Source: an uncultured Actinomycetota bacterium
Lineage (GTDB): Bacteria > Actinomycetota > Actinomycetes > JAFAQI01
Direction: 5' to 3'
NCBI GenBank assembly: GCA_963770565.1
Contig: CAVYQE010000002.1
Coordinates: 64,001-128,000 of the forward strand
DNA: 64,000 nucleotides
Shown one piece after another: positions 11,585 through 53,566 of the stretch (the stretch's first letter is position 1; every line of letters begins with the position of its first letter). Both the position numbers and the translations under genes were made by a program. The notes under the pieces were generated by a model that worked only from the letters and a program-made list of their open reading frames with translations, ran no database searches and had not been told where the DNA came from.

Positions 11585-11623
11585 GCTCCCGACGTCCGCT
11601 GATCGGCGGCTGCCCACCGAAAG

Positions 11624-11800: not shown

Positions 11801-11801
11801 T

Positions 11802-11817
11802 CGTGAAACTGTTCACA
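11802..11817. promoter_or_regulatory. CRP-like binding site 2 upstream of whiB1
   Basis: CGTGA-AACTGT-TCACA (one mismatch to consensus). Confidence 0.65.
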
Positions 11818-11894
11818 AGGGTTGAGCAGCCCAGCACGGGGTAGCCACACGACGGGCATCACCTGCGGGCGAGCCCTGAAGGAAGGACGAGCGC

Positions 11895-12146: not shown

Positions 12147-12194
12147 CCCACGCCGGGTTGATCGCAGCGCTCGACCGCCCGCATCGCACCCTCG

Positions 12195-13682: not shown

Positions 13683-13778
13683 CGGACCAGGCTAGGGCCC
13701 CTGCCGAACCCGCGATCGTCGCGCTGATCATCGCCCGACGACGCCGGCGCCTGGCCAGCCGCACTCGCTCGGCGAGGA

Positions 13779-36646: not shown

Positions 36647-37903
36647 GTGATGCCGCGCAAGCCGATCGCACAGGTCGTTGCCAACGCTCTCGGCCACCCT
36701 GACCTGCGCATCTCCGCGTACGACGGGAGCGCTACGGGTCCGGCCGACTCCTCGGTCAGCACCCATCTGTCGTCTCCTGCCGCCCTGTCCTACCTGATCA
36801 CCGCGCCGAGCTCGCTGGGTCTGGCGCGCGCGTTCGTCAGTGGCGAGCTCGAGATCGAGGGCGACCTCTACACCGCGTTGTCGATGCTGTGGAGCGACCG
36901 GATCGGCCGGCTGTCGTGGGCGGATCGGCTCGACGTGTTGCGCAACCTCGACCCCGCCGCGATCCGCTGGGTCGAGCCTCCTACCGAGGAGTTCGGCGCG
37001 CGCCGCCTGCAATACGGCTTCCGGCACTCGAAGGCCCGCGACGCGGAGGCGATCAGCCACCACTACGACGTGTCGAACAACTTCTACTCATGGGTGCTCG
37101 GGCCGTCGATGACCTACACCTGCGCCTGCTACCCCGAGGACGCCTCGACCTTGGAGGAGGCGCAGGCACACAAGTACGACCTGGTCGCCCGCAAGCTCAA
37201 CCTGCAGCCCGGCATGCGACTGCTCGACGTCGGCTGCGGATGGGGCGGAATGGTCCGGCACGCCGCGAAGCACTACGGCGTACATGCCCTCGGTGTCACG
37301 CTGTCGCGCCAGCAGGCCGAGTGGGGCGCGAAGGCGATCGCCGAGGACGGCCTCACCGGCACGGCCGAGATCCGGTTCTCCGACTACCGGGACGTCCGCG
37401 AGCGTGACTTCGACGCGGTGTCCTCGATCGGGCTGACCGAGCACATCGGCGCCTCGAACCTCGGTGCCTACTTCCGCTTCCTGCGTTCCAAGCTGCGGCC
37501 CGAGGGTCGCCTGCTCAACCACTGCATCACCCGCCCGACGACGACCGAGCGGGTCCACATCCGTGGCTTCATCGACCGCTACGTCTTCCCCGACGGCGAG
37601 CTCGAGGGCGCCGGACGGATCATCTCCGCGATGCAGGACAACGGGTTGGAGGTCCGGCACGAGGAGAACCTCCGCGAGCACTACGCGCGCACGCTGCATG
37701 CGTGGTGCGACAACCTCAACGACAACTGGGACGCCGCGGTGCGCGAGGTCGGGCTCGGCCGGGCCAAGGTCTGGGCGTTGTACATGGCGGGTTCGCGGCT
37801 CGGTTTCGAGCGCCGCACGATCGAGCTGCACCAGGTGCTCGGCGTGCGGGTGGCCGACAACGGCGAGTCCGGAATGCCGCTTCGCCCCGACTGGGGCGTG
37901 TAG
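36647..37903 (+). CDS. cfa: SAM-dependent fatty-acyl-phospholipid methyltransferase (Cfa/TmsB/BfaB-like)
   Basis: ISHHYDVSN, SMTYTCA, LLDVGCGWG, SIGLTEH, FIDRYVFPDGEL, HYARTL. Confidence 0.9.
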   Translation: MMPRKPIAQVVANALGHPDLRISAYDGSATGPADSSVSTHLSSPAALSYLITAPSSLGLARAFVSGELEIEGDLYTALSMLWSDRIGRLSWADRLDVLRNLDPAAIRWVEPPTEEFGARRLQYGFRHSKARDAEAISHHYDVSNNFYSWVLGPSMTYTCACYPEDASTLEEAQAHKYDLVARKLNLQPGMRLLDVGCGWGGMVRHAAKHYGVHALGVTLSRQQAEWGAKAIAEDGLTGTAEIRFSDYRDVRERDFDAVSSIGLTEHIGASNLGAYFRFLRSKLRPEGRLLNHCITRPTTTERVHIRGFIDRYVFPDGELEGAGRIISAMQDNGLEVRHEENLREHYARTLHAWCDNLNDNWDAAVREVGLGRAKVWALYMAGSRLGFERRTIELHQVLGVRVADNGESGMPLRPDWGV

Positions 37904-37948
37904 GCAGAGCCCCGACTGGGGCGTGTAGGCAGAGCCCCGACTGGGGCG
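37884..37948. repeat. 25-bp tandem repeat (about 2.6 units) of the cfa 3' end, each with a GCCCC-GACT-GGGGC hairpin
   Basis: GCCCCGACTGGGGCGTGTAGGCAGA at 37884, 37909 and (partial) 37934. Confidence 0.9.
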
Positions 37949-37949
37949 C

Positions 37950-40274: not shown

Positions 40275-40377
40275 TCGGTCGAGACCCTCCAGAGTGCTTG
40301 CTAGTAGCAACCATTCTTGCAAGCGATCGACCCGGCGATGCATCGGCCCTTGGACCGGCGGTCGGGGATGCGGTGAC

Positions 40378-42027
40378 TTAAGCGGTCGGCACGCTCGCGG
40401 CGCGCTGCAGGCCGAACTGCTCGACGGTGGCTTCACGCATCTTGAACTTCTGCACCTTCCCGGTCACCGTCATCGGGAACTCGCTCACGATCAGCACGTA
40501 GCGCGGCACCTTGAAGTGCGCCAGCCGACCCCGGCAGAACTCCCGCACCTCGTCCTCGGTGATCGCCTCACCGTCCCGTACGACGACCCACGCGCAGAGC
40601 TCCTCGCCGTACTTCTCGTCCGGGACACCGACCACCTGCACGTCCGCGATCGCGCGATGGGTGTAAAGGAACTCCTCGACCTCGCGGGGATAGATGTTCT
40701 CGCCGCCCCGGATCACCATGTCCTTGATCCGCCCGACGATGTTGAGGTAGCCGTCCTCGTCCATCGTCGCGAGGTCGCCGGTGTGCATCCAGCGGGCCGC
40801 GTCGATGACCTCAGCGGTGCGCTCGGGGTCGGCCCAGTAGCCGAGCATCACCGAGTAGCCACGAGTGCACAGCTCGCCCGGCGTTCCTCGCCCGACCGTC
40901 AGGCCGGTCTCCGGGTCCACGACCTTGACCTCGACGAACGGATGCACCCGCCCGACCGTCGACACCCGCCGCTCGAGATCGTCGTCGGCGCGGGTCTGGG
41001 TCGACACCGGCGAGGTCTCGGTCATGCCGTAACAGATCGTGACCTCGTCCATGTGCATCTCGGTGACGACCCGCTTCATCACCTCGACCGGGCACGGCGA
41101 GCCGGCCATGATGCCGGTCCGCAGGCTCGTCAGGTCATAGGTCGCGAAGTCCGGCAGCGCGAGCTCGGCGATGAACATCGTCGGTACGCCGTACAGCGAG
41201 GTGCAACGCTCCGCCTGCACGGCCGCCAGGGTCAGTGCCGGGTCGAACCCCGGCGCCGGGATCACGATGCACGCGCCGTGGGTGGTCACAGCGAGATTGC
41301 CGAGCACCATCCCGAAGCAGTGGTAGAACGGCACCGGGATGCAGACCCGGTCGCGGTCGGTGTAGCGGCAACCTTCGCCGATGAAGAACCCGTTGTTGAC
41401 GATGTTGTGATGGCTGAGCGTCGCGCCCTTCGGGAACCCGGTCGTGCCGCTGGTGTATTGGATGTTGATCGGATCGTCCGCCGACAGTGTCGCGGCCCGG
41501 GCGCGCACCGGGTCGAACGACGCCGACGCATCGCCGCGGGTGCTCACCCGCTCCCACTCCGGTGACCCGAGGCAGATCACCGTCTCGAGCGCAGGCACGT
41601 CACCGCGCACCTCGCCCACCATCTCGACGTAGTTGGAGGTCTTGAACTCCGGCGCGCAGACCAAAGCCCGGCAACCGGACTGGTTCAGGGCGAAGGCGAG
41701 CTCGTGCGTGCGGTACGCCGGGTTGATCGTCACCAGGATCACGCCGATCCGGGCCGTGGCGTACTGCACGAGCACCCACTCGGCACAGTTCGGCGCCCAG
41801 ATCCCCAGTCGGTCCCCGCGGGCCAGGTCGAGCTCGAGCAGGCCGAGCGCCAGCTCGTCGACCGCCGCGTCGAGCTGGCGATACGTCCACCGCCGCCCAG
41901 TCGCGCAGTCGACCAGCGCCTCCGAGTCGGGCGCAAGCGACGCAGTGCGCGCGAGGTTGTCGCCGATCGTCTCGCCGAGCAGCGGCAGAGCACTCGTCCC
42001 AGCGGCGTACGACGGGGTCTGGCTCAC
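40378..42027 (-). CDS. Fatty-acyl-CoA synthetase (AMP-binding, ACSF2-like)
   Basis: [48 protein letters not shown]. Confidence 0.95.
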
Positions 42028-42137
42028 TCCTCAAACCTTGCCACGGCTAGCGGCATGCGTCACGAGACCAGGTCTCCGCGGTCGGCTGGGCCAGGTCGGC
42101 CGCCCCCACGGGTAGCTTCGTCCGGGTTCATCTGTCC

Positions 42138-43127
42138 TCACACCAAGTAGCCGACCAGCTCCACCGTGACGAGCGCCCTCCCGGAATGCGCCGCGGAACG
42201 GACCGCGATTGCCCGTGCGGAAGAGACAGCGGTCGTCACAGTGTTCGCCGTTCGTCCGCCGTGCGGACCCCACTCCGCCGCGACCACCGCAGGCGAGGTT
42301 CCCGCCGCACCGGCGTGGAGCACTCCGGCTTTCGTGGTGCCATTCACCGCAACGGTGTAGATCGCGCCATTGGCACCCTTCGGCAGATGCGCGGCGAGTG
42401 GGATCACTTTGGTCTCGTTGGCCGTGATCGGCGACTTCGAGTGGTACACGGTGGTCGGCTTGGTCAGCAGGACCGGGGACAACGGCGCGTTGAGCAGCCC
42501 AACCCGAAAGCCGTTCACCTTGATGCTCTGGTTGGCGAGAGTGTCGACGTACACGGCGAGCATGCAGCCGTGCGGAAACGGCCCGTTCACCGACTTGGGG
42601 ATGACGAGCCGGGTCACGTGCATGGACGATCCGGCGAACGGACCGAGCTGCGTGCTTGCAATCACGTTTCCGAGGGTCGCGATACCCGACGACCAGACTG
42701 CAACGGACAGAGTGGTGTTCGTGTTGGCGATGTAGTACACCTCGGCATCGCGCACCCGGGCGCCTGGTGGCAGCTCGAAGAAGCAGCCAAGAGGGTCGCT
42801 GGTAGTTGCGCTGACGCCCTCGCTCACGAACACCCGCCCGTCTGCCAAGCTGTTGAGCGGCGTAAGGTCACCCCAACTCGCGAACCGATAGGACACGCCG
42901 TGCTCCGGCGGCGAGCTGATCGAGGAGAGGCCGCCCGGCGTGCCCCGCGGGAGAGCACCCGCGCTGGGTACGACCACCGCCGGCGGCACAGCGGCCGACG
43001 CCACCGAACCCGTGCCGATCAGTGCGGCACCGCTCGCCGCCCCGGTCAGAAGACTTCTCCTGCTGATGTAGTGCGACCCCGATCCATGCCGAATTAGAGC
43101 ACGCCCGACAGGCGCGATGTGGCGCAC
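42138..43127 (-). CDS. Tat-exported protein of unknown function with a C-terminal actinobacterial surface beta-domain (start uncertain)
   Basis: ISRRSLLTGAASGAAL...ASA twin-arginine signal; C-terminal LPKGANGA...ANTVTT...VELVGY pattern. The upstream part of the tracked ORF (to 44129) is a shadow frame. Confidence 0.65.
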   Translation of the reverse strand: MRHIAPVGRALIRHGSGSHYISRRSLLTGAASGAALIGTGSVASAAVPPAVVVPSAGALPRGTPGGLSSISSPPEHGVSYRFASWGDLTPLNSLADGRVFVSEGVSATTSDPLGCFFELPPGARVRDAEVYYIANTNTTLSVAVWSSGIATLGNVIASTQLGPFAGSSMHVTRLVIPKSVNGPFPHGCMLAVYVDTLANQSIKVNGFRVGLLNAPLSPVLLTKPTTVYHSKSPITANETKVIPLAAHLPKGANGAIYTVAVNGTTKAGVLHAGAAGTSPAVVAAEWGPHGGRTANTVTTAVSSARAIAVRSAAHSGRALVTVELVGYLV

Positions 43128-43318
43128 AGGCCGATTATTGACGCCGTGTACGGGAAGCGGTTGTCCGATTGACGCGAACGCAACCCTTGTTCGGCCGGTT
43201 GACCACGTTCTAGCCAGGACAAACAGCCATGGCGGGTTAGGGGCCCGCTGTGACCTCCAACTCGCCATGATCTTGGCCACCGAGCGGCTGGTGGTCGAGT
43301 CTCTCCGGGCTGGTCGGG

Positions 43319-44341
43319 TCAGCGGGCCTGGCCGCTGTGCGGCGCGACTTGCAGGCTCGACTCGTCCACCGCCTGGAAGGCACTCGCCGGGATCGTCTTG
43401 AGTTGCTCGATCATCGTGTCCGACCACTTGGTGCTGGCCTCGCCCTGGAAGTACCACGGCGACCCGTTGTCCGCGAGGATCAGCCCGAAGGTCTTCATCG
43501 CCTGCAGGACGACTCTGGTGGCCCGGCTGTATCCGGTCATCGAGAAGCTCGCCTTCAACCGGAACCGCGCGCCCATCGGCGGGTAGTCGAGGCTGCGCTT
43601 GCTCCCGGCCTGGTGCTCGGCCGGCCAGATGAAGTGCTCCGACGTCACCGGCGCGGTGAACCGGATCGCGTGGTCGACGTACCCGGCTCGGACCTCGCTC
43701 GGCCGCAACAGCCCGGGCAGGATCGGAAGCCCGGCGGCGTCCGCCGAGGTCAGACCGCTGGCGCCGAGGTTCAGGTGCGCCTTGAAGCGCAGCTTGTTGC
43801 TGTTGAGGTTCCAGACCGCGCCGGATCCGGCGGTCCAGCCCTTGTTGGTGTCGCGGGTGGCGAAGGTCTCGTAGTCCAGGCAGGTCGCCTTGTCGACGAC
43901 GATCGCGTGCCGGTCGCCGCCAGCGTTCCGGCCGCCCTCGATCTTCGTGTCCTTGCCAAGCGGGTAACGGACGTGATCGCTCTCCGAGCCGTACATGAAC
44001 TTCACGTGCACCTTCGGGTGGCTGGCACTCACAACCGTGATCGGGATGCCGTACGGCACCGGCTGAGCGCCGAACGACGGACCGAAGTCGGGGTGCAGCA
44101 GGTCGGACCGCCCGATGTGCTTCACCCACTCCGCGCTGTGCTTGTTGACCGGCAGCTTGCTGATATCGGTGTTCCAGACGTTGTCAGCCGGGAAGACCGC
44201 GCACGTCGTACCCGGCAGGTGGCTCGGCGGAGGCGTCGCCGCGGCTCGCCCGGCAGGCACCGAGCCCGCGGCGGGTATGGCAATGACACAACCTGCGGCG
44301 GCGAGCATTGCGGCGGCCGCGGACCCCACGAGACGTCTCAT
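43319..44341 (-). CDS. Conserved secreted protein of unknown function
   Basis: Signal peptide; FPADNVWNTDIS, GDRH, TSADAAGLPILPGL, DHAIRFT, PMGARFRL, GLILADNG. Confidence 0.75.
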   Translation of the reverse strand: MRRLVGSAAAAMLAAAGCVIAIPAAGSVPAGRAAATPPPSHLPGTTCAVFPADNVWNTDISKLPVNKHSAEWVKHIGRSDLLHPDFGPSFGAQPVPYGIPITVVSASHPKVHVKFMYGSESDHVRYPLGKDTKIEGGRNAGGDRHAIVVDKATCLDYETFATRDTNKGWTAGSGAVWNLNSNKLRFKAHLNLGASGLTSADAAGLPILPGLLRPSEVRAGYVDHAIRFTAPVTSEHFIWPAEHQAGSKRSLDYPPMGARFRLKASFSMTGYSRATRVVLQAMKTFGLILADNGSPWYFQGEASTKWSDTMIEQLKTIPASAFQAVDESSLQVAPHSGQAR

Positions 44342-46395: not shown

Positions 46396-47364
46396 TCAGG
46401 TCGGGTAACGCACGTACGCCGTACCGAGGGTGCGGACGAAGTCGGGGTCGGCGACCGGGTCGGCCGGGATGTCGAGCGGCTCGTCGCAGCCGGCGAAGTC
46501 GGCAGCGAACCGGCTGAGCACCTCGTCAAGGTCGAGATCCTCGGTGTGGTCGTCATGCCGGCGCCGGTCGGCCTCGTCGTGGAAGGCGATTGCCTTCCAC
46601 GACAAGCTCACCCGCAACTGTTCGGCCGGGAACACGGCCCGGTCAACGCCCTCCTCGGAGATGGCCCAGGCGCCGCTGTCGCGACGGACCAGCTCGGCTT
46701 CGCGGGTCAGCGTCACCATGCCGTCCTCGACCCGCCCGGTCGGGCGCACCCGGTGCCACATGAAGTCGTTGTCGGCGACGATCGCCGTGTTGTCGATCGC
46801 CCCCTCGTGCACGACCGACGCGCCGTCGACGCCGGCTGGCCAGTATTCGAAGCCGCCGTCGGCACCGCGATAGAACCAGGCGACCGCGGTCGCCACCTTC
46901 ACCCGCGCGTCCTCGAACAGCCCGGACAACCCCATCATGGTCAGGAACGTGATCGGGTACTTCGTACGGTCGAAGCCGCGGAACGCCGGCACGTCGGTGT
47001 GACCTGCGCCTTGGGCGAACGGCAGCTGCCAGGTGAGGTTGACGTAGACGGTTGTCGGCCGGACGATCTCCGCACCGAAGAGCCGACGTGCGGCGTCCGC
47101 GAAGCGCGCGCTCTCGAGGATCGGCCGTACGCCGTGCAGCGGCTCGCCGTCGGTCGCCCAGTTGCCGCGGAAGACCGGCGCGATGATCATCTGGGCCGGC
47201 TCCGCCTGCCCCGACAGGGCCGCGTACTCGGCGCTGTTGGCGAAGTATCGCTGCACCGGCCAGTACGGCTGATGCGCGTCGATCAGTGACCGGACCAGTC
47301 CCGGGTCGTCGACAGCGGTGTCGAGCACGACCGGCGGGCGTGGAAGCGGCGTGCCTTCTCCCAT
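46396..47364 (-). CDS. Putative Fe(II)/2-oxoglutarate-dependent oxygenase (uncharacterised)
   Basis: GHTD (HxD), GGFEYWP, distal WHRV and RVS (RxS) in the order expected for a DSBH oxygenase. The fold assignment is inference. Confidence 0.6.
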   Translation of the reverse strand: MGEGTPLPRPPVVLDTAVDDPGLVRSLIDAHQPYWPVQRYFANSAEYAALSGQAEPAQMIIAPVFRGNWATDGEPLHGVRPILESARFADAARRLFGAEIVRPTTVYVNLTWQLPFAQGAGHTDVPAFRGFDRTKYPITFLTMMGLSGLFEDARVKVATAVAWFYRGADGGFEYWPAGVDGASVVHEGAIDNTAIVADNDFMWHRVRPTGRVEDGMVTLTREAELVRRDSGAWAISEEGVDRAVFPAEQLRVSLSWKAIAFHDEADRRRHDDHTEDLDLDEVLSRFAADFAGCDEPLDIPADPVADPDFVRTLGTAYVRYPT

Positions 47365-47384
47365 CAGATCTGCGGCCGGATCGA

Positions 47385-47591
47385 CTACTGGTGTTCTGCG
47401 GTTCGAGCCGCCTCAGCAGCTTCGACCGCGGCAGTCATTCGGGCCGCCGCCGCCCGCACAACGCGGTCCTCATCGGCGGTGAGGTCCGCGGCCCGCATCT
47501 CGATAACCCATGCGATGCGTTCTAGGTCGAACACGATCCAGGGCGTCAGCCGATCGTCAACCGCCCATGCCCTGAACGTCGCTTCGTCCAT
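47385..47591 (-). CDS. Hypothetical 68-aa protein
   Basis: ORF MDEATFRAWAVDD..., co-oriented and ending 20 nt before the oxygenase-like gene; no motif recognised. Confidence 0.4.
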   Translation of the reverse strand: MDEATFRAWAVDDRLTPWIVFDLERIAWVIEMRAADLTADEDRVVRAAAARMTAAVEAAEAARTAEHQ

Positions 47592-47623
47592 TCGTGCAGT
47601 CTGAGCCACCAGACGGGCTTTGT

Positions 47624-47777
47624 CATCACACGTGATTCGTGCGAGACGGCACGAGATCACGTCTGATGGAGCGGCATCCGCCGGGGCGGCAGGGTGCGCC
47701 GGAGCTGTGGGCCTTGACGTCGGCAACCGTTCGGTTCGTGAGCCGTTACGGGTGGCGGGGCACTTCTAGCGGCTCAC
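47624..47777. other. Two long intergenic hairpins
   Basis: CATCA-C-ACGTGAT-TCGTGC..GCACGA-G-ATCACGT-C-TGATG (47624-47668) and GTGAGCCG...CGGCTCAC (47738-47777). Confidence 0.6.
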
Positions 47778-47809
47778 ACATCGCTCGGCGGTGGTGGGCG
47801 ACGCGGGGC

Positions 47810-48364
47810 TCAGTCGCGAACGACCAGGGTGTCGAGCGGCGTGCGGCTGAAGACCTCGCGCGCCATCGGCAGGAAGCGGTCCAGCGACTCGGTCGGGTAC
47901 GCCGGATCGAACGACCGTTGGTCCCATCGCTCGCAAAACCGCACGCAGGCCTTGAAGTACGGGTTGCTCCGGTAGGCGTCGCGCATCGTGCGGTCCTTGC
48001 CGATGTGGTGGAAGTAGTAGTAGCCCTGGAACAGGTCGTGGTGCTTGACCACCCACCAGTTCTGGTCACCGACGAACGGGCGCAGCACCGCCGCCGCGAC
48101 CTCGGCGTGATTGTCCGGGGCGAGCGAGTCCCCGATGTCGTGCAGCAGCGCACACACGACCGTCTCGTCGTCCTCGCCGTCGTGCAGCGCCCGGCTCGCG
48201 GTCTGCAGGGAATGGACGTACCGGTCGACGGCCGCCGTACCCGGGTCCTCTTCCTTCAGCAACTCGAGCTGGGCGAGCACGAAGTCGAGGGTGGGCGGCG
48301 CCGCGATGGTGTCGAGATCCGCGCAGTCCTCGGCGGTCATGTGATCCATGCGCGTGTAGGTCAT
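47810..48364 (-). CDS. HD-domain protein (PhnZ-related/COG4341-like)
   Basis: HSLQTA, ALLHDIG, NHAE, KHHD.FQGYYY, WDQ: the H..HD..H..H..D dimetal ligand set. Starts 6 nt after the sqdB stop. Confidence 0.85.
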   Translation of the reverse strand: MTYTRMDHMTAEDCADLDTIAAPPTLDFVLAQLELLKEEDPGTAAVDRYVHSLQTASRALHDGEDDETVVCALLHDIGDSLAPDNHAEVAAAVLRPFVGDQNWWVVKHHDLFQGYYYFHHIGKDRTMRDAYRSNPYFKACVRFCERWDQRSFDPAYPTESLDRFLPMAREVFSRTPLDTLVVRD

Positions 48365-48370
48365 GGTGCG

Positions 48371-49558
48371 TCAGTCGTGTTGGCGCCAGAGCGAGCGCGC
48401 CGGGATCTTGTCGACGTCGACCCGGTCGACGAAGCGCTGCGCGATCGCAGTCACCTCTTCCAGCAGGCCCTCCTCGAGTGTGATCGGCGAGAGCCCGAGC
48501 TCGATCAGCTGGCCGTTCTCGACCAGCAGGTCGTTCTCCTCGGCCTCGTTGCGCGGGTTCTTGACGTGGTCGATCTCGACGCCGGTGAGCCGCGAGACCA
48601 GCTTGGCGAGGTCGATCAGGCGATGCGTCTCGGTCATCTGGTTGAAGACCCGCACCCGCTGGCCCTTGGCCGGCGGCTGCTCCAACGCAAGCTGGATGCA
48701 GCGAACCGTGTCCTGGATATGAATGAACGCACGGGTCTGGCCACCGGTGCCGTGCACGGTCAGCGGGTAGCCGATCGCCGACTGCATCAGGAAGCGGTTG
48801 AGCACCGTGCCGTAGTCGCCGTCGTAGTCGAACCGGTTGATCAGCCGGTCGTCCCGACTGGTCTCAGCGGTCTGCGTGCCCCAGACGATGCCCTGGTGGA
48901 GGTCGGTGACCCGAAGGGCGTCGTTCTTGTTGTAGTAGGCGAACAGCAGCTGGTCCTGCGTCTTGGTCATGTGGTAGATCGAGCCCGGGTTCGGCGGGTA
49001 GAGGATCTCCGACGACACCGTCTCGCCGTTGCCGATCGGGATCTCGACCTGCAGGTATCCCTCGGGGATCTTGACCCCGGCCGTGCCATAGCCGTAGACG
49101 CCCATCGTGCCCAGGTGGATCACGTGGATGTCGAGGTCGGCCTCGACGATCGCGGCCAGCAGGTTGTTGGTGGCGTTGAGGTTGTTGCTGACCGTGTAGC
49201 GCTTGTGCCATGACGACTTCATCGAGTACGGCGCGGCCCGCTGCTCGGCGAAGTGGACGACCGCGTCCGGCTGCCAGTCCTGCAGCAGCGTGAGCAGCCG
49301 GTGGTAGTGGACCGCAACGTCGAAACGGTCGAACCCGATCTCCTTGCCGCTGAGCTCACGCCAGGTCTTCAGCCGGATCCCCATCGGCGTGATCGGCGTC
49401 AGCGACGACGCCTCAAGCTCGATGTCGGCCTGCCGCCGGGCGAAGTTGTCGACGATCCGCACATCGTGGCCCTGCTCCGACAGGTGCAGTGCAGTCGGCC
49501 ACCCGCAGAAGCCGTCGCCACCGAGAATCAGGACCTTCACCGGACCACCTTTCGCCAT
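48371..49558 (-). CDS. sqdB: UDP-sulfoquinovose synthase
   Basis: GGDGFCGWPTAL, HFAEQRAAPYSM, HLGTMGVYG, PGSIYHMTK, TDLHQGIVWG, RFDYDGDYGTVLNRF, FNQMTE. Confidence 0.95.
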   Translation of the reverse strand: MAKGGPVKVLILGGDGFCGWPTALHLSEQGHDVRIVDNFARRQADIELEASSLTPITPMGIRLKTWRELSGKEIGFDRFDVAVHYHRLLTLLQDWQPDAVVHFAEQRAAPYSMKSSWHKRYTVSNNLNATNNLLAAIVEADLDIHVIHLGTMGVYGYGTAGVKIPEGYLQVEIPIGNGETVSSEILYPPNPGSIYHMTKTQDQLLFAYYNKNDALRVTDLHQGIVWGTQTAETSRDDRLINRFDYDGDYGTVLNRFLMQSAIGYPLTVHGTGGQTRAFIHIQDTVRCIQLALEQPPAKGQRVRVFNQMTETHRLIDLAKLVSRLTGVEIDHVKNPRNEAEENDLLVENGQLIELGLSPITLEEGLLEEVTAIAQRFVDRVDVDKIPARSLWRQHD

Positions 49559-49636
49559 GCCGTGCCGAGTCGCGCCATGCTCAGGGCTGCCGGGATCGCC
49601 GGCAGGCCGCCCCGAGCCTAGCGACAGCAGCGGCCG

Positions 49637-50644
49637 CTACGCGGGGGCGGAGCGTTTGGCCCGCCAGGCCGGCACCGAGACCACGGCCAGCACGGTCAGC
49701 TCAGCAAGCACGGTCACCAACCTCGACGTGATCGCCGCGGCCTGCAGCTCGGCGTGCGGATAGAGGTTGCGCAGCATCCAGATGTAGACGACCTCACGGA
49801 CGCCTACCCCGCCGGGCGCGAACACAACCACCAGGCCGACCGCCCACGCCACGCACGTTGCGCCCGCGACGTACAGCGGGTAGGTCGGGTTGCGGATGCC
49901 GGAGACCGCGAGCTGGCTGAGGATGCCCGCGATGCCGTAGGCGACATACCCGAAGGAGTAGGTGCCGGTCGCCCGGACCACGCCGGCGTGAGTGACCCTG
50001 GTACGCCGCTCGAGCCAGCGCCCGCACAACGTGGGCACTACGACGACGATCGCAAGCGGCAGGTAGATCGGGTTGTGCACGGTCGCCCACAACGCGCCGA
50101 CGCCGAGCGCGGCCGCCAGCACGATGACGTTCTCGGCCGCGACCGCGGCGGCTTTGTCGCGAACCCGTCCCTGCACGGTCGTGGCCCGAGTGAGCGGGGC
50201 CCAGATCCCGCCCGGGAGATAGCGGGTGACCTGCGTCTTGCACCACTGCTCGACCGGCAGCCGGTGAATGCGTTCGGTGATCAGCACGGACCAGCCGAAG
50301 GCAAGCGCGACCCACCAGACCAACGCCGCGGCGTACGCGAGCACGAGCGCCCAGATCCTGACCGTGGACAGGTCGATCTTGGTCGCGGCTCGATAGGCGA
50401 TGTAGCCGACGAGGATCAGCGCGAGCGGGAGGTAGACGACCCGCGCGATCGCGATCGCCCGTGGCGCTCGGCGCTCGAGCTCCTTGAAGCGCTCGTGCCC
50501 GCGCATCAGCAGCCGATGACTGCGGGTCATCAGCCCGACCTTGGCGGGCCCGGTCTTGGTTGGCTCAGTCGTGGTCGGCTCAGTCGTGGCGGGCGCAGCC
50601 TCGGCGGGGAGCTCGAGACCTTCCTGCTCGGGCGCGATCGACAT
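49637..50644 (-). CDS. Lysylphosphatidylglycerol-synthase-TM (flippase-like, AglD2/UPF0104) membrane protein
   Basis: RYLPGGIW, APGGVGVRE, SRLVT; about 8 TM segments; TGATG overlap with the GT2 stop. Confidence 0.8.
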   Translation of the reverse strand: MSIAPEQEGLELPAEAAPATTEPTTTEPTKTGPAKVGLMTRSHRLLMRGHERFKELERRAPRAIAIARVVYLPLALILVGYIAYRAATKIDLSTVRIWALVLAYAAALVWWVALAFGWSVLITERIHRLPVEQWCKTQVTRYLPGGIWAPLTRATTVQGRVRDKAAAVAAENVIVLAAALGVGALWATVHNPIYLPLAIVVVVPTLCGRWLERRTRVTHAGVVRATGTYSFGYVAYGIAGILSQLAVSGIRNPTYPLYVAGATCVAWAVGLVVVFAPGGVGVREVVYIWMLRNLYPHAELQAAAITSRLVTVLAELTVLAVVSVPAWRAKRSAPA

Positions 50645-51465
50645 CAGCCGCCGGCCAGCCGACCGGCCCGTCTGGCCCGGTTCCACTCGCGCCACCACGT
50701 GGTCAGGATTACCCGGGCGTAGCGCCCGGCATACAGAACGTTGTGCCCCTTCTTGCTCTCGCCCGCGAGCCGCTTATGCATCGTGATCGGGCGCTCGGCG
50801 ATCCGGTAGCCGTGGTAGATCGCCCCGATCAGCAGCTCCGAGGTCTGATACTGCACCTGCACCTGCGGCACGGTCTGGGTGACCTCGACCCGCATCGCGC
50901 GGAAGCCGCTCGACGTATCGGTGACGTGGGTGCGGGTAAGCAGGCTCACCAGCTTGGCGAAAACGGTTACGCCGGCGTGCCGGAACCGGTCGTCGGTCTC
51001 CGCCACCCCGAGGACTCGGGAGCCGATGACGAAGTCGGCCTCGTCCTGGACCAGCGGCTCGAGCACAGTCGGGATCTCGACCGGGTCCCACTGCATGTCG
51101 GCGTCGAGGGTGACGACGTACTGCGCGGCGAACTCGCTGGCCAGCTGGTAGCCAAGCCGCAGGGCCACCCCGTGGCCGCAGTTGCGCTCGAGCCGGGCCA
51201 GATAGACGCCCTCCCGGTCACGGACGACGTCGCTGGTGCCGTCGGTGCTGCCGTCGTCGATCACCAGGGTGTCGACCTCGAGCCCGCAGGCGGTCGCCGG
51301 GATCGCGTCGAGCACCGCGCCAAGGCTGTCCTGCTCGTTGAGCGCGGCGATGATCGCAACCGTCGGCGCCAGCTTGAGCGACGCGTGTCTGGTCCGGAAG
51401 TCTTCGAGCGCGGCCGACCTGACCTGGCCGATATACGGCCGGTCCTTGCGGTTGGTCGCGGACAC
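50644..51465 (-). CDS. GT2 polyprenyl-phosphate glycosyltransferase (DPM1-like)
   Basis: IIAALNE, IDDGSTDGT, NCGHGVA, LDADMQ, VIGSR, DTSSGFRA, RLAGESKK; TAGGGT -10 before GTG. Confidence 0.9.
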   Translation of the reverse strand: MSATNRKDRPYIGQVRSAALEDFRTRHASLKLAPTVAIIAALNEQDSLGAVLDAIPATACGLEVDTLVIDDGSTDGTSDVVRDREGVYLARLERNCGHGVALRLGYQLASEFAAQYVVTLDADMQWDPVEIPTVLEPLVQDEADFVIGSRVLGVAETDDRFRHAGVTVFAKLVSLLTRTHVTDTSSGFRAMRVEVTQTVPQVQVQYQTSELLIGAIYHGYRIAERPITMHKRLAGESKKGHNVLYAGRYARVILTTWWREWNRARRAGRLAGG

Positions 51466-51528
51466 GACCCATACCCTACGGTTCGGCGGTACTAGCGATA
51501 CATCGAACGATCTCGACAGGAACATCTC

Positions 51529-53124
51529 GTGCCCGGTGAGACATCTCAAGGCGGTGACTCCGCGACGTTGGCGACCCGGTCGCCGGCGGCCTCGGACGCG
51601 CCCGAGGTGACCGTCTCGGCGGATGGGTCGACCTCGACTGCCGGCCGGTTCGAGCGCTGGATCCGCCCGGGAGTGGTCGTCGTACTCCTCGTCTCGATCG
51701 CGCTGCGCTTCATCGCGCCGTCGCCGCTGTGGCTCGACGAGGCCCAGACCGTCAACATCGCCCATCGCTCGCTCCACCACCTGATCAGCGCGCTGCGGGA
51801 GGACGGCTCACCGCCGCTGTACTACCTGCTGCTGCACGCCTGGATGGCGGTCTTCGGCACGAGCACCTTCGCGGTCCGCGCGCTGTCCGGCATCTTCTCG
51901 GTCGCGTCCCTGCCGGTCATGTACGTCGTCGCGCGCCGGTTCCGGCTGGTCGGCGACTCGGCGTGGGCGGCGGTCCTGCTGCTGGCCACCTGCCCGTTCG
52001 TCGTGCGCTACGGCAGCGAGACCCGGATGTACTCGCTGGTGCTGTTACTCGTGTTGCTGGCGATGCTGACCTATCACTGGGTGTGGACCGACGGCGGGCT
52101 CTGGCCGAACGTCAGCGCCGCGCTCGTCACCGCGGCTCTTGTGCTCACGCAGTACTGGGCGTTCTTCCTGACCGCGACCGCGGTCGTGGCGATCGGCGTC
52201 GCGGCGTGGCGCGGGACCCGGCGGGCGCTGTGGCTGCTGCTACCGATGGCGGTGGGCTGGCTCGCGTTCATCCCGTGGCTCCCGTCGTTCGCCTACCAGA
52301 ACGCCCACACCGGCGCGCCCTGGGGAACTCCGCCCGGCCTCGAGGTGCCGGTCCTGACGATCGGCGCCTGGGTCGGGAACGGGCTGACCGCGCCCGCGCT
52401 GAGCTGGTCCTACTACCTGCTCATCGTCGCCGCAATCGCCGGCTACGTGACCGCGAGCGGGCGGATCAGCCTCGGCCGGCCGCTTCGGCAGTGGCCGACG
52501 CTCGTGCTGGGGCTCGCAATCCTGACCATGCTCGTCGGCACGATCGCCAGCGACCTGAGCGACACGTCGTACTCACCGCGGTACAGCGCGATCGTCGTGG
52601 GACCGATCCTGCTGGTGATCGCCGCTGGCTTCGCGGCCCTGCCGGCTCAGGTGCGTAACGGCGCGATTGCGGTGGTGACCGTGCTCGGTCTTGCGAGTGC
52701 GGCCTTGATCCCTGGTCAGCTGCGGACCCAGGCCGGCCAGGTCGCCACAATTCTCAAAGCAGCCGGGCCGCATGACCTGGTCGTGTTCTGCCCCGATCAG
52801 CTCGGCCCCGCGGTCAACCGGATCGCGCCGCACGAGGGCACCCAGGTCGTCTATCCGAGCTTCGGCTCGGCGGCAATGGTCGACTGGGTCGATTACGCGA
52901 AGCGCAACGAGACCGCCGACCCGCTGGCATTCGCCAAGACCGCGTTGCAGCGCGCGGACGGGCACCAGATCTGGCTGATCTACGCGATCGGCTACCAGAC
53001 CCTCGCGGGTGGCTGCACCTCCCTTTATGCCTCGTTCACCGCTGCCCGCGGCGTACCGATCGATGCCCTGAACCCGCACTCCGCGTTCGAGAAGTACAGC
53101 GTCGCCGAGTTCCCCGCCAAGTAG
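51529..53124 (+). CDS. GT-C fold glycosyltransferase (PMT_2/GT39/ArnT-like)
   Basis: LWLDEA, DGSPPLYYLLL, VRALS, ETRMYSL, PRY; about 12 TM segments plus a C-terminal extracellular domain. Confidence 0.85.
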   Translation: MPGETSQGGDSATLATRSPAASDAPEVTVSADGSTSTAGRFERWIRPGVVVVLLVSIALRFIAPSPLWLDEAQTVNIAHRSLHHLISALREDGSPPLYYLLLHAWMAVFGTSTFAVRALSGIFSVASLPVMYVVARRFRLVGDSAWAAVLLLATCPFVVRYGSETRMYSLVLLLVLLAMLTYHWVWTDGGLWPNVSAALVTAALVLTQYWAFFLTATAVVAIGVAAWRGTRRALWLLLPMAVGWLAFIPWLPSFAYQNAHTGAPWGTPPGLEVPVLTIGAWVGNGLTAPALSWSYYLLIVAAIAGYVTASGRISLGRPLRQWPTLVLGLAILTMLVGTIASDLSDTSYSPRYSAIVVGPILLVIAAGFAALPAQVRNGAIAVVTVLGLASAALIPGQLRTQAGQVATILKAAGPHDLVVFCPDQLGPAVNRIAPHEGTQVVYPSFGSAAMVDWVDYAKRNETADPLAFAKTALQRADGHQIWLIYAIGYQTLAGGCTSLYASFTAARGVPIDALNPHSAFEKYSVAEFPAK

Positions 53125-53133
53125 CCCGCGCTA

Positions 53134-53186
53134 CCCCACCAATGGGCCATGCGTGGGGCTATAGCCCCACCGATGGGCCATGCGTG
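53134..53186. repeat. Family B repeat copy 2 (inverted relative to 25006-25092)
   Basis: CCCCACCAATGGGCCATGCGTGGGGCTATAG followed by CCCCACCGATGGGCCATGCGTG. Confidence 0.88.
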
Positions 53187-53190
53187 TGGC

Positions 53191-53218
53191 TTGACACATT
53201 CCGATAGTGGAATATGTT
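53191..53218 (+). promoter_or_regulatory. Housekeeping-type promoter with an ArsR operator
   Basis: TTGACA-N16-TATGTT with ATTCC-N6-GGAAT between the boxes; GTG start six nt downstream. Confidence 0.7.
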
Positions 53219-53224
53219 TGGGTC

Positions 53225-53566
53225 GTGGCCCGATCCTCCACGACGTCGGACGTCTTCAACGCGGTTGCCGAGGCGCACCGGCGCGAGATCCTCGACGTAC
53301 TGATCGCCGGTGAGAAGGCGGTCGGGGCGATCGTGGACGACCTGTCGATGTCACAGCCCCAGGTGTCCAAACACCTCCGGGTGCTCAGTGAGGTCGGGCT
53401 CGTCAGGTGCCGGACGGATGGGCGTCGCCGGCTCTACCGCCTGGAGCCAGCGCGCCTTCGGCCGTTTCACGAGTGGCTGGCCAAGTACGAGCAGGCCATG
53501 AACGACCGGCTGGACCGGGTGGACGACTACCTCAAAGAGCTCCAACAACAAGGAGAACGGCAGTGA
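53225..53566 (+). CDS. ArsR/SmtB-family regulator
   Basis: DVFNAVAEAHRREIL, SQPQVSKHLRVL, GRRRLYRL. Confidence 0.92.
   Translation: MARSSTTSDVFNAVAEAHRREILDVLIAGEKAVGAIVDDLSMSQPQVSKHLRVLSEVGLVRCRTDGRRRLYRLEPARLRPFHEWLAKYEQAMNDRLDRVDDYLKELQQQGERQ

What the first reader, a model, noticed from the sequence alone, without database searches (positions are those of the whole stretch)
47810..53124. sqdB with a three-component (GT2 + flippase + GT-C) glycosylation module: candidate extracytoplasmic sulfoquinovosylation system
Seen: an operon GT2 -> flippase-like (TGATG-coupled) -> sqdB -> HD protein, with a divergent GT-C transferase; no GT4 sqdX or sqdC/D in this window. Established: bacterial SqdB normally supplies UDP-SQ to SqdX or SqdD/C to make the lipid SQDG. 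GT2/flippase/GT-C trios load a sugar onto polyprenyl-phosphate, flip it and transfer it to surface glycans or proteins. Sulfolobus uses the SqdB homolog Agl3 to put SQ on N-glycans. Inference: this actinobacterium may make polyprenyl-P-sulfoquinovose and decorate a cell-wall polymer, lipoglycan or protein with SQ. I know of no description of this route in bacteria.
Basis: partly seen in the sequence, partly recalled or inferred. Interest (0 to 1): 0.8.

Follow-up and report, generated by a model that had tools for sequence, protein, structure and literature searches.

The report
Sulfo-sugar synthase with surface glycosylation genes
A soil actinobacterium keeps the gene that makes the activated sulfo-sugar UDP-sulfoquinovose next to genes that look able to load a sugar onto a lipid carrier, flip it across the membrane and attach it outside the cell, which would be a use of this sugar not described in bacteria but is not yet shown by chemistry.

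Summary
On the minus strand lie a DPMS/ArnC-like GT2 (50644-51465), a membrane protein overlapping it by TGATG (49637-50644), SqdB (48371-49540) and an HD protein (47810-48364). A GT-C (51529-53124) is divergent. SqdB matches Arabidopsis SQD1 over its full length and keeps the catalytic motifs. The membrane protein is a diverged UPF0104/MprF-flippase-like protein by fold. The GT-C fold is confirmed.

The module recurs. One Mycobacteriales MAG of 80 sqdB loci has the same order. Of 120 listed membrane-protein relatives, 32 appear to share a contig with an SqdB or GT-C relative. Other Actinomycetota pair sqdB with the same GT2 subfamily plus GtrA or GT-C-like domains, including GT-C-like::GT2 fusions in cultured Saccharomonospora and Prauserella. 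Relatives of the GT2 occur fused to GtrA, UPF0104 or GT-C-like domains.

Best reading (about 0.5): polyprenyl-phosphate-sulfoquinovose is made, flipped and transferred to an unknown envelope acceptor.

Limits: the sugar, the carrier and the acceptor are all inferred. sqdX elsewhere in the genome could not be excluded. The HD gene is not a conserved member. I found no description in print. I rate it a new variant of the three-component glycosylation systems.

The parts
50644..51465 (-). GT2 glycosyltransferase of the polyprenyl-phosphate sugar synthase class (273 aa, no predicted membrane domain of its own)
   Evidence: Pfam PF00535, E=5e-22. The best NCBIfam hits are Dol-P-hexose transferase, AglJ, PpgS and ArnC, all below their equivalog cut-offs. 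The best solved relatives are Pyrococcus DPMS 5MLZ (6.4e-13) and ArnC. DADxQ and GESKKG are conserved across 8 sqdB-linked homologues. The GTG start at 51465 rests.
49637..50644 (-). 'MEM': polytopic membrane protein, a diverged UPF0104 / MprF-flippase-domain-like protein (335 aa). Its start overlaps the GT2 stop (TGATG).
   Evidence: PF03706 scores only E=0.011, 15.7 bits against a cut-off of 33.4. 14 of 120 listed homologues carry a precomputed PF03706 domain. The AlphaFold2 model has pLDDT 85.6. The six best PDB matches are all MprF, TM-score 0.45-0.52 over about 300 columns. The overlap was read.
48371..49540 (-). SqdB, UDP-sulfoquinovose synthase (389 aa from the GTG; an ATG at 49558 would give 395 aa)
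   Evidence: Matches Arabidopsis SQD1 (1I24/1QRR) at E=6e-93 over residues 8-392, keeping GxxGxxG, GTMG and YHxxK. The catalytic residues are named in PMC4388408. It is 66-88% identical to sqdB in 80 genomes, cyanobacteria included. NCBIfam NF041015 gives E=5e-102 but 341.7 bits against a cut-off of 575.
47810..48364 (-). HD-domain protein (184 aa) that starts 6 nt after the sqdB stop. It is probably co-transcribed but is not a conserved member of the module.
   Evidence: Pfam HD, E=7.6e-07. There are weak N-terminal matches to PhnZ and TmpB. No homologue was found in any of the 80 sqdB loci. L001 has a convergent methyltransferase at this place.
51529..53124 (+). GT-C fold glycosyltransferase (PMT_2 / GT39-GT83-like, 531 aa; the start is uncertain within about 80 nt), divergent from the GT2
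   Evidence: PF13231 scores 30.3 bits against a cut-off of 26.1. The AlphaFold2 model has pLDDT 89. All 50 PDB matches listed are GT-C enzymes, the best being ArnT 5F15. W68, D70 and E71 after the first helix, and C421 and C496 in the C-terminal domain, are invariant in 38 sequences.
51466..51528 (.). Short divergent intergenic region between the GT2 and the GT-C (presumed shared promoter region)
   Evidence: Read directly. No sigma-70-like site was found there by the consensus scan.

Best explanation
This is a four-gene module for extracytoplasmic sulfoquinovosylation.

1. SqdB makes UDP-alpha-sulfoquinovose from UDP-glucose and sulfite. This step is shown by homology.
2. The soluble, DPMS/ArnC-like GT2 transfers sulfoquinovose to a polyprenyl phosphate at the inner face of the membrane and gives polyprenyl-P-beta-sulfoquinovose. 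This step is inferred.
3. The translationally coupled UPF0104/MprF-like membrane protein anchors the GT2, flips the anionic lipid-linked sugar to the outer face, or both. This step is inferred.
4. The divergently transcribed GT-C transfers the sugar, again with inversion, to an unknown envelope acceptor: a wall polysaccharide, a lipoglycan or a protein. This step is inferred.

The HD gene is a local passenger or accessory.
For: Identity of SqdB:
- Full-length match to SQD1 with the catalytic motifs kept (PMC4388408).
- 66-88% identity to sqdB across phyla.

GT2 class:
- The nearest solved relatives are DPMS and ArnC.
- NCBIfam's best hits are Dol-P-hexose transferase, AglJ, PpgS and ArnC.
- Of the 150 best representatives found with the GT2 profile, 23 carry a GT-C-like membrane domain and 2 carry a MEM-like domain.
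- Of 14 of those representatives scanned with Pfam, 3 are GT2+GtrA and 2 are DUF2304+GT2.
- MEM therefore sits where GtrA sits in sister proteins.

MEM:
- It has an MprF flippase-domain fold and overlaps the GT2 by TGATG.

GT-C:
- The fold and the conserved D-E after the first helix are confirmed.

Linkage:
- L001 has the same order at 88/60/66/63% identity for SqdB, MEM, GT2 and GT-C.
- 21 of 120 MEM rows share a longest-contig length with the top SqdB rows (chance about 1.4), and 15 share one with GT-C rows (chance about 0.9).
- 28 of the 54 MEM rows with contigs of 5 kb or more match one list or the other.
- 16 of the 17 GT-C matches fall among the 48 closest GT-C relatives.

Independent analogues next to sqdB:
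- L019 and L026 have a GT-C-like::GT2 fusion plus GtrA.
- L004 has MEM plus a GT-C-like gene directly upstream of sqdB.
- L002, L041, L013 and L040 hold the same GT2 subfamily near sqdB.
- On a quick SqdB tree the GT2-linked loci fall in at least 3 places.
Against: - No chemistry exists. The donor sugar of the GT2, the lipid acceptor and the final acceptor are all inferred from neighbourhood and family.
- Only 1 of 80 species-representative sqdB loci has the identical arrangement.
- The wider support from contig-length matching is indirect.
- The rest of the genome could not be searched, so an sqdX or sqdD elsewhere, with SQDG as the only product, is not excluded. 70 of the 80 sqdB loci lack a GT4 within 500 bp.
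- MEM does not reach the Pfam PF03706 cut-off, and its fold match is moderate (TM-score about 0.5).
- UPF0104 proteins are so far linked by experiment to glycerolipids (MprF; gpgSDF, PMC12713373), not to polyprenyl-phosphate sugars.
- SqdB scores below the NCBIfam equivalog cut-off.
Confidence: 0.5

Rival explanations
1. This is a sulfo-glycolipid module. SqdB, the GT2 and MEM make a sulfoquinovose-bearing membrane lipid and flip it to the outer leaflet as the end product. The lipid could be a glycerolipid or polyprenyl-P-sulfoquinovose itself. This would parallel MprF and the gpgSDF/hexSDF operons. The GT-C next door would then use another donor or be only loosely connected.
For: - UPF0104 proteins with experimental links act on glycerolipids. 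The MprF structures are the only fold matches. GpgF is a UPF0104 protein encoded with a glycolipid synthase (PMC12713373, passages).
- GT2, MEM and SqdB are on one strand and tightly packed, while the GT-C is divergent.
- Linkage of MEM to SqdB (21 rows) is more frequent than linkage of SqdB to GT-C (6 rows).
Against: - The GT2 belongs to the DPMS/ArnC/AglD class, and its closest relatives are fused to GT-C-like and GtrA domains. This points to a donor for a GT-C rather than an end product.
- The known glycolipid operons with UPF0104 use a GT4, not this GT2 class.
- GT-C orthologues are co-located with MEM on 15 of 120 rows and in L001.
Confidence: 0.2
2. This is an ordinary three-component system for a common hexose, with sqdB as a neighbour only. 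The GT2, MEM and GT-C would carry glucose, mannose or another sugar on polyprenyl phosphate. SqdB would feed a classical SQDG synthase (SqdX or SqdD) encoded elsewhere.
For: - sqdB is often not adjacent to its transferase: 70 of 80 loci have no GT4 within 500 bp.
- The GT2 hits are to hexose, GalNAc and Ara4FN transferases and say nothing about donor choice.
- The database names for the GT-C relatives are 'mannosyltransferase'.
- The rest of the genome is unseen.
Against: - Linkage of this GT2 subfamily or MEM with sqdB recurs in several SqdB lineages and different gene orders: WIN/L001, L002, L004, L019/L026, L041 and L013/L040.
- In L001 the MEM ORF overlaps the start of sqdB.
- The contig matches of MEM to SqdB are far above chance.
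Confidence: 0.2
3. The SqdB homologue makes a nucleotide sugar other than UDP-sulfoquinovose, and the module decorates the envelope with that sugar.
For: The score is below the curated NCBIfam equivalog cut-off, 341.7 against 575.
Against: - It is 66-72% identical to cyanobacterial sqdB.
- It aligns over its full length with SQD1 and keeps GxxGxxG, Thr and YxxxK.
- Close relatives are fused to PAPS reductase, which makes sulfite, in 7 of 80 loci.
Confidence: 0.05

Closest known systems
Three-component extracytoplasmic glycosylation systems. Examples are GtrA/GtrB/GtrV-type O-antigen glucosylation, ArnC/ArnEF/ArnT, CsbB/GtcA/YfhO and the mycobacterial PpgS/Rv3632/Rv3779 GalN system (all recalled), and the pentofuranose systems of Kelly et al. 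2024 (PMC11127046, abstract and outline read).
   Same: A cytoplasmic polyprenyl-phosphate sugar synthase, a membrane flippase candidate and a GT-C transferase are encoded together. A gene that makes the special donor sugar lies in the cluster.
   Different: - The linked sugar gene is sqdB, so the inferred sugar is an anionic sulfonated hexose.
- The flippase candidate is of the UPF0104/MprF type instead of GtrA, EmrE-like or MATE.
- The acceptor is unknown.
- Nothing is shown biochemically.
Archaeal AglD-type proteins (GT2 fused to a UPF0104 domain) and the GT2 + UPF0104 + PMT/STT3-like neighbourhood predicted by Makarova et al. 2015 (PMC5898192, passages read)
   Same: - The same three protein families occur as neighbours.
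- Relatives of the window's GT2 exist as GT2::MEM fusions, P0384 and P0397, which is the AglD architecture.
- The best NCBIfam hits of the GT2 are haloarchaeal Dol-P-hexose transferase and AglJ.
   Different: - This module is bacterial and its genes are split.
- It is linked to sqdB.
- The archaeal systems carry hexoses on dolichol phosphate for N-glycans.
- The flippase role of UPF0104 is a prediction there too.
The SqdB/SqdX (or SqdB/SqdD) pathway to the lipid SQDG
   Same: The same first enzyme, UDP-sulfoquinovose synthase.
   Different: - No GT4 or GT8 transferase is in the window.
- The partners here are an inverting GT2, a flippase-like protein and a GT-C.
- By contrast, 10 of the 80 sqdB loci do have a GT4 within 500 bp.
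Agl3 of Sulfolobus acidocaldarius, a UDP-sulfoquinovose synthase for an N-glycan (PMC4388408 and PMC11407970, passages read)
   Same: Sulfoquinovose is used for a non-lipid glycoconjugate on the cell surface.
   Different: - In Sulfolobus the sugar is part of a lipid-linked oligosaccharide. That it is built on the cytoplasmic side and transferred en bloc is recalled, not read.
- Here a single sugar would be carried by polyprenyl phosphate and added outside the cell.
MprF, and the gpgSDF/hexSDF operons (PMC12713373, passages read)
   Same: A UPF0104-type membrane protein is encoded with the enzyme that makes a charged lipid head group, and is thought to flip the product.
   Different: - The substrates there are glycerolipids and the synthase is a tRNA-dependent transferase or a GT4.
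- Here the synthase is a DPMS-like GT2 and a GT-C is attached.

Membership tests
UDP-sulfoquinovose synthase (SQD1/SqdB/Agl3) | Full-length homology to the solved SQD1 structure | tested here: met
   E=6e-93; residues 8-392 align with 13-393 of 1I24.
UDP-sulfoquinovose synthase (SQD1/SqdB/Agl3) | GxxGxxG, the catalytic Thr and the YxxxK motif (Thr145, Tyr182, Lys186 of SQD1) | tested here: met
   GGDGFCG, LGTMG and IYHMTK align with the SQD1 motifs. The residues are named in PMC4388408.
UDP-sulfoquinovose synthase (SQD1/SqdB/Agl3) | Auxiliary and model-specific: a score above the curated cut-off of NCBIfam NF041015 | tested here: not met
   341.7 bits against 575, at E=5e-102. The protein is 66-72% identical to cyanobacterial sqdB, so I read this as a narrow model and not as a different enzyme.
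UDP-sulfoquinovose synthase (SQD1/SqdB/Agl3) | Forms UDP-sulfoquinovose from UDP-glucose and sulfite | not testable with these tools
   This needs an enzyme assay.
Polyprenyl-phosphate glycosyltransferases of GT2 (DPMS/GtrB/ArnC/AglD class) | GT2 (GT-A) domain with a DxD motif | tested here: met
   PF00535, E=5e-22. DAD is invariant in 8 sequences.
Polyprenyl-phosphate glycosyltransferases of GT2 (DPMS/GtrB/ArnC/AglD class) | Closest characterised relatives are polyprenyl-phosphate sugar synthases | tested here: met
   DPMS 5MLZ at 6.4e-13 and ArnC at 7e-10. NCBIfam hits are Dol-P-hexose transferase, AglJ, PpgS and ArnC, all below their equivalog cut-offs.
Polyprenyl-phosphate glycosyltransferases of GT2 (DPMS/GtrB/ArnC/AglD class) | Association with membrane partner or flippase-type domains | tested here: met
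   Of the 150 best representatives, 23 carry a GT-C-like domain and 2 a MEM-like domain. Of 14 scanned with Pfam, 3 carry GtrA and 2 carry DUF2304.
Polyprenyl-phosphate glycosyltransferases of GT2 (DPMS/GtrB/ArnC/AglD class) | Transfers a sugar to polyprenyl phosphate; here UDP-sulfoquinovose as donor | not testable with these tools
   This needs an in vitro assay.
UPF0104 / PF03706 (MprF flippase domain, 'PplT') | Pfam PF03706 at or above the gathering score | tested here: not met
   15.7 bits against 33.4, E=0.011. The L004 homologue scores 31.0 bits. 14 of 120 homologues carry a precomputed PF03706 domain. I therefore call MEM 'UPF0104-like', not a member.
UPF0104 / PF03706 (MprF flippase domain, 'PplT') | Fold of the MprF transmembrane domain | tested here: met
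   The model has pLDDT 85.6. The six best PDB matches are all MprF, probability 1.00, TM-score 0.45-0.52; the next matches have probability 0.18 or less.
UPF0104 / PF03706 (MprF flippase domain, 'PplT') | Lipid translocation activity | not testable with these tools
   This needs a flipping assay.
GT-C glycosyltransferases (PMT_2; GT39/GT83-like) | Pfam PMT_2 above the gathering score | tested here: met
   30.3 bits against 26.1.
GT-C glycosyltransferases (PMT_2; GT39/GT83-like) | GT-C fold | tested here: met
   The model has pLDDT 89. All 50 PDB matches listed are GT-C enzymes, including ArnT, ALG9/12, STT3/PglB, PMT, AftD and Emb.
GT-C glycosyltransferases (PMT_2; GT39/GT83-like) | Conserved acidic residues in the first loop after helix 1 | tested here: met
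   D70 and E71 are invariant in 38 sequences. They follow helix 38-59 in the model. That this motif defines the family is recalled.
Three-component extracytoplasmic glycosylation system | Synthase, flippase candidate and GT-C are encoded together, and this is conserved across genomes | tested here: met
   The window and L001. Contig matches of MEM to GT-C on 15 of 120 rows and of MEM to SqdB on 21 of 120 rows.
Three-component extracytoplasmic glycosylation system | A lipid-linked monosaccharide is used outside the membrane to modify a finished glycan or protein | not testable with these tools
   This needs genetics and glycan analysis.
SQDG pathway (SqdB + SqdX/SQD2 or SqdD) | A GT4 or GT8 sulfoquinovosyltransferase gene | tested here: not met
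   None is in the 64-kb window. The rest of the genome was not available.

The most novel reading that the evidence does not exclude
Many soil Actinomycetota, including uncultured Mycobacteriales and, with other partners, Pseudonocardiaceae, Thermoleophilia and Rubrobacterales, make polyprenyl-phosphate-sulfoquinovose and use it outside the membrane to put a permanently anionic sulfonate sugar on wall polymers, lipoglycans or proteins. A UPF0104/MprF-type protein would serve as the flippase for a polyprenyl-linked sugar. This would be a new bacterial glycoconjugate class, a new non-photosynthetic source of sulfoquinovose in soil, and the first assigned substrate of this kind for a stand-alone UPF0104 protein.
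Probability: 0.45. Interest if true: 0.8.

Novelty: new variant of a known kind. Interest (0 to 1): 0.7.

Why it matters
In bacteria sulfoquinovose is known as the head group of the membrane lipid SQDG. Its breakdown is a large part of the sulfur cycle (recalled).

A route that places it on cell-envelope polymers of non-photosynthetic soil actinobacteria would have three consequences. It would add a new kind of anionic wall decoration, functionally comparable to teichoic acids or succinyl and phosphate substituents. It would add a new environmental pool of the sugar. It would give a testable function to the large, uncharacterised UPF0104 family next to glycosyltransferases.

The hypothesis can be tested directly. 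Cultured Saccharomonospora and Prauserella strains carry an analogous cluster with a GT-C-like::GT2 fusion, GtrA and SqdB.

Tried and rejected
- Complex prediction of GT2 with MEM gave no verdict (score 0.00). It counts neither for nor against binding.
- Sequence search of the PDB with MEM and with the GT-C found nothing useful. Fold searches were needed instead.
- All-against-all clustering of 759 neighbour ORFs gave clusters too small to use. I replaced it with Pfam scans and profile searches.
- My first greedy gene calls miscalled overlapping high-GC ORFs, for example in L001. I replaced them with six-frame ORFs.
- The promoter and terminator scan of 47300-53400 found 1 promoter-like site (shuffles average 0.5) and 1 terminator-like site (shuffles average 1.5), and none in the GT2/GT-C intergenic region.
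- The window holds no tRNA and no Rfam family.
- The 378-aa reading of the GT2 ORF and the 353-aa reading of MEM were rejected in favour of shorter starts.
- I considered the HD protein as a functional member, for example a PhnZ-like oxygenase acting on the sulfonate. I rejected it as a conserved part because no homologue lies in any of the 80 loci. Its function stays open.
- The careful tree search did not finish within the time limit. Only the quick tree is reported.
I therefore could not read full contigs of the environmental relatives or the rest of the source genome.

Full report
**Anatomy.** The window has 66-74% G+C. I called genes by third-position G+C together with ORF structure. In 47810-53124 there are five genes.
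- On the minus strand lies a GT2 glycosyltransferase (Pfam PF00535, E=5e-22). After it come a polytopic membrane protein with no Pfam match at E<=0.01 (called 'MEM' here), an SqdB homologue and an HD-domain protein.
- On the plus strand, divergent from the GT2, lies a GT-C glycosyltransferase (PF13231 PMT_2, 30.3 bits against a cut-off of 26.1).

The GT2 stop TGA (50646-50644) and the MEM start ATG (50644-50642) share one base.

Three starts needed correction.
- The GT2 most likely begins at the GTG at 51465 (273 aa). The stretch upstream is full of rare codons. The homologous ORF in L001 cannot exceed 275 codons. The N-terminus MSATNRKDRPYI is conserved with L001.
- MEM begins at 50644 (335 aa).
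- SqdB probably begins at the GTG at 49540, behind AAGGTGG. This gives 389 aa, as in most homologues.

The HD gene starts 6 nt after the sqdB stop. The GT2 and the GT-C are about 63 bp apart.

**Surroundings.** The neighbours include MMPL, FadD-like and mycolic-acid-cyclopropane-synthase-family genes, WhiB and ECF sigma factors. This fits an actinobacterium of the Mycobacteriales in the wide sense. The closest SqdB locus is a 'Mycobacteriales bacterium' MAG.

**SqdB.** The protein aligns with Arabidopsis SQD1 over residues 8-392 (E=6e-93) and keeps GGDGFCG, LGTMG and YHMTK. These correspond to the GxxGxxG motif and to Thr145, Tyr182 and Lys186 of SQD1 as described in PMC4388408 (passages read).
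- A scan of one genome per species found 588 relatives. The best 80 are 66-88% identical and include cyanobacteria, alphaproteobacteria, Bacillota and Actinomycetota.
- The NCBIfam equivalog model NF041015 matches at E=5e-102 but below its curated cut-off, 341.7 against 575 bits. I report this as a result against. Given the other evidence, I read it as a narrow model.
- In 7 of the 80 loci SqdB is fused behind a PAPS-reductase domain. Five are confirmed by Pfam and two more by phmmer. That enzyme makes sulfite, which fits a sulfite-using enzyme.

**GT2.** The nearest solved relatives are Pyrococcus dolichyl-phosphate mannose synthase (6.4e-13) and three ArnC structures. The best NCBIfam matches are haloarchaeal Dol-P-hexose transferase, AglJ, PpgS and ArnC, all far below their equivalog cut-offs. 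So the class is clear but the substrate is not.

Eight sqdB-linked homologues share DDGSxDxT, DADxQ, GSR and GxSKK. The protein has no membrane domain of its own.

A profile of these eight sequences was run against 1.84 billion representative proteins. It found 3,323 proteins at E<=1e-30. Among the best 150:
- 23 carry a large membrane domain of the type found in L019 and L026, 20 of them at E<1e-50.
- 2 carry a MEM-like domain behind the GT2: P0384 at E=6e-100 and P0397 at E=1e-74.
- Of 14 that I scanned with Pfam, 3 are GT2+GtrA fusions and 2 are DUF2304+GT2.

Fusion to a GtrA domain, a UPF0104-like domain or a GT-C-like domain is what one expects of a synthase that hands a lipid-linked sugar to a flippase and a GT-C. 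MEM stands where GtrA stands in sister proteins.

**MEM.**
- Pfam PF03706 (LPG_synthase_TM, UPF0104) matches only at E=0.011, 15.7 bits against 33.4.
- A 46%-identical relative in L004 reaches 31.0 bits.
- 14 of the 120 listed homologues carry a precomputed PF03706 domain, and some sources name them 'YbhN (UPF0104 family)'.
- The language-model atlas placed 26 of 30 hits in a set whose first cluster has PF03706 on 12% of its members. This is a lead only.
- An AlphaFold2 model from 38 sequences has pLDDT 85.6.
- The six best PDB matches are all MprF, aligned over about 300 columns with TM-score 0.45-0.52 and probability 1.00. The next matches have probability 0.18 or less.

I therefore call MEM a diverged UPF0104/MprF-flippase-domain-like protein. 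It fails the Pfam cut-off, so this is 'works like', not 'is a member'.

**GT-C.** The model has pLDDT 89. All 50 PDB matches listed are GT-C enzymes, the best being ArnT bound to undecaprenyl phosphate. In 38 sequences W68, D70 and E71 just after the first helix are invariant. So are two cysteines (C421, C496) in the C-terminal alpha/beta domain. The cysteines suggest a domain outside the cytoplasm; this is inference.

**Is the module conserved?** I searched the window proteins against the 80 sqdB loci with tblastn.
- SqdB was found in 80 of 80 loci, the GT2 in 10, MEM in 2 (L001, L004), the GT-C in 1 (L001) and the HD protein in 0.
- L001 has the same order, GT-C divergent and then GT2-MEM-SqdB. 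Identities are 63%, 66%, 60% and 88%. Its MEM ORF overlaps the start of sqdB.

The identical arrangement is therefore rare among species representatives. The protein searches, however, gave indirect evidence for many environmental copies. The tables list the longest contig of each 90% cluster, and equal lengths in two tables point to one contig.
- 21 of 120 MEM rows share a length with the 119 SqdB rows that give a contig length. Jittered lengths give a mean of 1.4 and at most 6.
- 15 of 120 MEM rows share a length with the GT-C rows (mean 0.9 by chance).
- 6 lengths are shared between the SqdB and GT-C lists, and 4 by all three lists.
- Of the 54 MEM rows with a contig of 5 kb or more, 28 match one list or the other.
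- 16 of the 17 GT-C rows that match lie among the 48 closest GT-C relatives.

This is a proxy and a lower bound, because the tables show 120 rows only. I could not read those contigs.

**Independent analogues near sqdB.** Eight of the 80 loci hold a close relative of this GT2 (phmmer E<=2e-22) within 7 kb of sqdB.
- L019 (Saccharomonospora sp.) and L026 (Prauserella rugosa) encode a 762-772-aa protein whose C-terminal half is this GT2 (45% identity). A GtrA gene sits between it and sqdB.
- The N-terminal half of that protein aligns with the window's GT-C family in a profile comparison: probability 83%, E=8.6e-06, over the first helices, with YIDTF aligned to WLDEA. One relative has a weak GT87 match (E=0.0073). 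I call this domain GT-C-like with moderate confidence.
- L004 (Thermoleophilaceae) has a MEM homologue and a gene of the same GT-C-like type directly upstream of sqdB. That gene is broken into three frames. A DUF2304-GT2 lies nearby.
- L002 has two GT2 genes, the GT-C-like protein and two DUF6077 membrane proteins upstream of sqdB.
- L041 (Rubrobacterales) has a DUF2304::GT2 immediately after sqdB. L013 and L040 (Rhodanobacteraceae and a relative) have one 2-3 kb downstream.

On a quick SqdB tree (the careful search did not finish) these GT2-linked loci need 5 label changes, and well-supported branches force at least 3. The association therefore does not come from a single shared ancestor.

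**Base rate against over-reading.** Only 10 of the 80 sqdB loci have a GT4 within 500 bp. A missing sqdX next to sqdB is therefore the rule, and its absence from this window is weak evidence.

**Mechanism.** These parts are shown by homology or fold:
- SqdB is a UDP-sulfoquinovose synthase.
- The GT2 is of the polyprenyl-phosphate synthase class.
- MEM has the MprF flippase-domain fold.
- The divergent gene is a GT-C.

These parts are inferred:
- The GT2 uses UDP-sulfoquinovose and a polyprenyl phosphate.
- MEM anchors the GT2, flips the product, or both.
- The GT-C uses that product on an envelope acceptor.

GT2 and GT-C enzymes both invert (recalled), so the final linkage would be alpha. I put this reading at about 0.5.

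**Rivals.**
- A sulfo-glycolipid as end product, flipped by MEM, about 0.2. This parallels MprF and gpgSDF (PMC12713373, passages read).
- An ordinary hexose system with sqdB as a mere neighbour and SQDG made by a transferase elsewhere, about 0.2.
- A different product of the SqdB homologue, about 0.05.

**Comparison with what is known.** The module works like the three-component systems for extracytoplasmic glycosylation. For these I read the abstract and outline of PMC11127046, which shows that the flippase family can vary (MATE there). PMC8035078 I saw only in a search listing. The Gtr, Arn, CsbB/GtcA/YfhO and PpgS/Rv3632/Rv3779 examples are recalled.

The closest architectural precedent is archaeal. 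Makarova et al. (PMC5898192, passages read) described UPF0104 as the C-terminal domain of AglD-type GT2 proteins. They also described it as a neighbour of PMT/STT3-like enzymes, and predicted a flippase role. A preprint (10.1101/2022.03.11.483950, passages read) lists glycosyltransferase fusions of this domain.

What is new here is the conserved link to sqdB in bacteria.

**Searches for prior description.** None of these full-text searches found a paper that proposes a polyprenyl-linked or GT-C-dependent route for sulfoquinovose in bacteria:
- sulfoquinovose with polyprenyl and glycosyltransferase;
- sqdB with Actinobacteria;
- sulfoquinovose with cell wall and Actinomyc;
- UDP-sulfoquinovose with polysaccharide and bacterial;
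- sulfoquinovose with undecaprenyl;
- sulfoquinovose with GtrB, GT-C, ArnT, lipoarabinomannan or O-antigen;
- sulfoquinovos with dolichol phosphate or Agl3.

The library lacks most subscription journals, so this is not proof of absence.

**Verdict.** I rate it a new variant of a known kind, with interest 0.7.

Noticed in passing
L006 8870-11218, L012 8969-11215, L021 2099-4246, L023 9098-11221, L027 9152-11239 (Isoptericola jiangsuensis, complete genome); also L015 and L068: SqdB is fused behind a PAPS-reductase (CysH-like) domain in 7 of the 80 loci, mostly Nocardioidaceae. These loci sit in clusters with GT2, GT4, sulfotransferase and pyruvyl-transferase genes. That suggests sulfite channelling and sulfoquinovose in a polysaccharide built in the cytoplasm. 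Five fusions are confirmed by Pfam and two by phmmer only.
   Followed up: partly
window 26142-27602 (+): This is a 486-aa polytopic membrane protein with a weak PMT match (E=0.0055). It is homologous (E=4e-53) to the N-terminal domain that is fused to this GT2 subfamily in L019 and L026 and in 23 of the 150 best GT2 representatives. It may be a second GT-C-like user of the same lipid-linked donor. It lies 21 kb from the module, next to an RsgA GTPase gene.
   Followed up: partly
L019 6528-11155 (Saccharomonospora sp. CUA-673); L026 6450-11155 (Prauserella rugosa NRRL B-2295): Cultured strains carry a GT-C-like::GT2 fusion, a divergent GtrA gene and sqdB. In L026 an arylsulfotransferase gene follows at 12485-14077. 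These strains are the handiest organisms for testing the idea.
   Followed up: partly
window 47810-48364 (-): The HD protein matches PhnZ and TmpB (HD-domain oxygenases that cleave C-P bonds) only over its N-terminal His/HD region (E=1.2e-08 to TIGR03276, far below the cut-off; PDB 4MLM at E=6e-04). It is packed 6 nt behind sqdB but is absent from all 80 other sqdB loci. Its function is open.
   Followed up: partly
L009, L011, L014, L020 (Solirubrobacterales and relatives), about 8300-13400: Here sqdB lies between a peptidase M48 and PspA-associated protein B upstream and a PspA/IM30 gene downstream. In three of the four loci (L011, L014, L020) a GT4 gene follows sqdB. L016, not scanned with Pfam, has a GT4 at the same place. 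This looks like a classical SQDG pair set inside a membrane-stress locus.
   Followed up: no
L008 6819-9331: A sulfatase and a formylglycine-generating enzyme gene lie just upstream of sqdB in a Solirubrobacteraceae MAG.
   Followed up: no
L002 4681-9943: Two large DUF6077 membrane proteins lie between the GT2 genes and sqdB, and an epimerase and two phosphodiesterase genes lie downstream. DUF6077 may be another transferase-like membrane family tied to this sugar.
   Followed up: no
L004 8490-10256: The GT-C-like gene upstream of sqdB is split over three reading frames in this assembly. It is either a pseudogene or a set of frameshift errors.
   Followed up: no
window 36647-44341: This stretch holds a CMAS-family methyltransferase, an MMPL transporter, an AMP-binding (FadD-like) enzyme and two ORFs of 393 and 340 aa with no Pfam family. 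It looks like a lipid-export locus unrelated to the finding.
   Followed up: no
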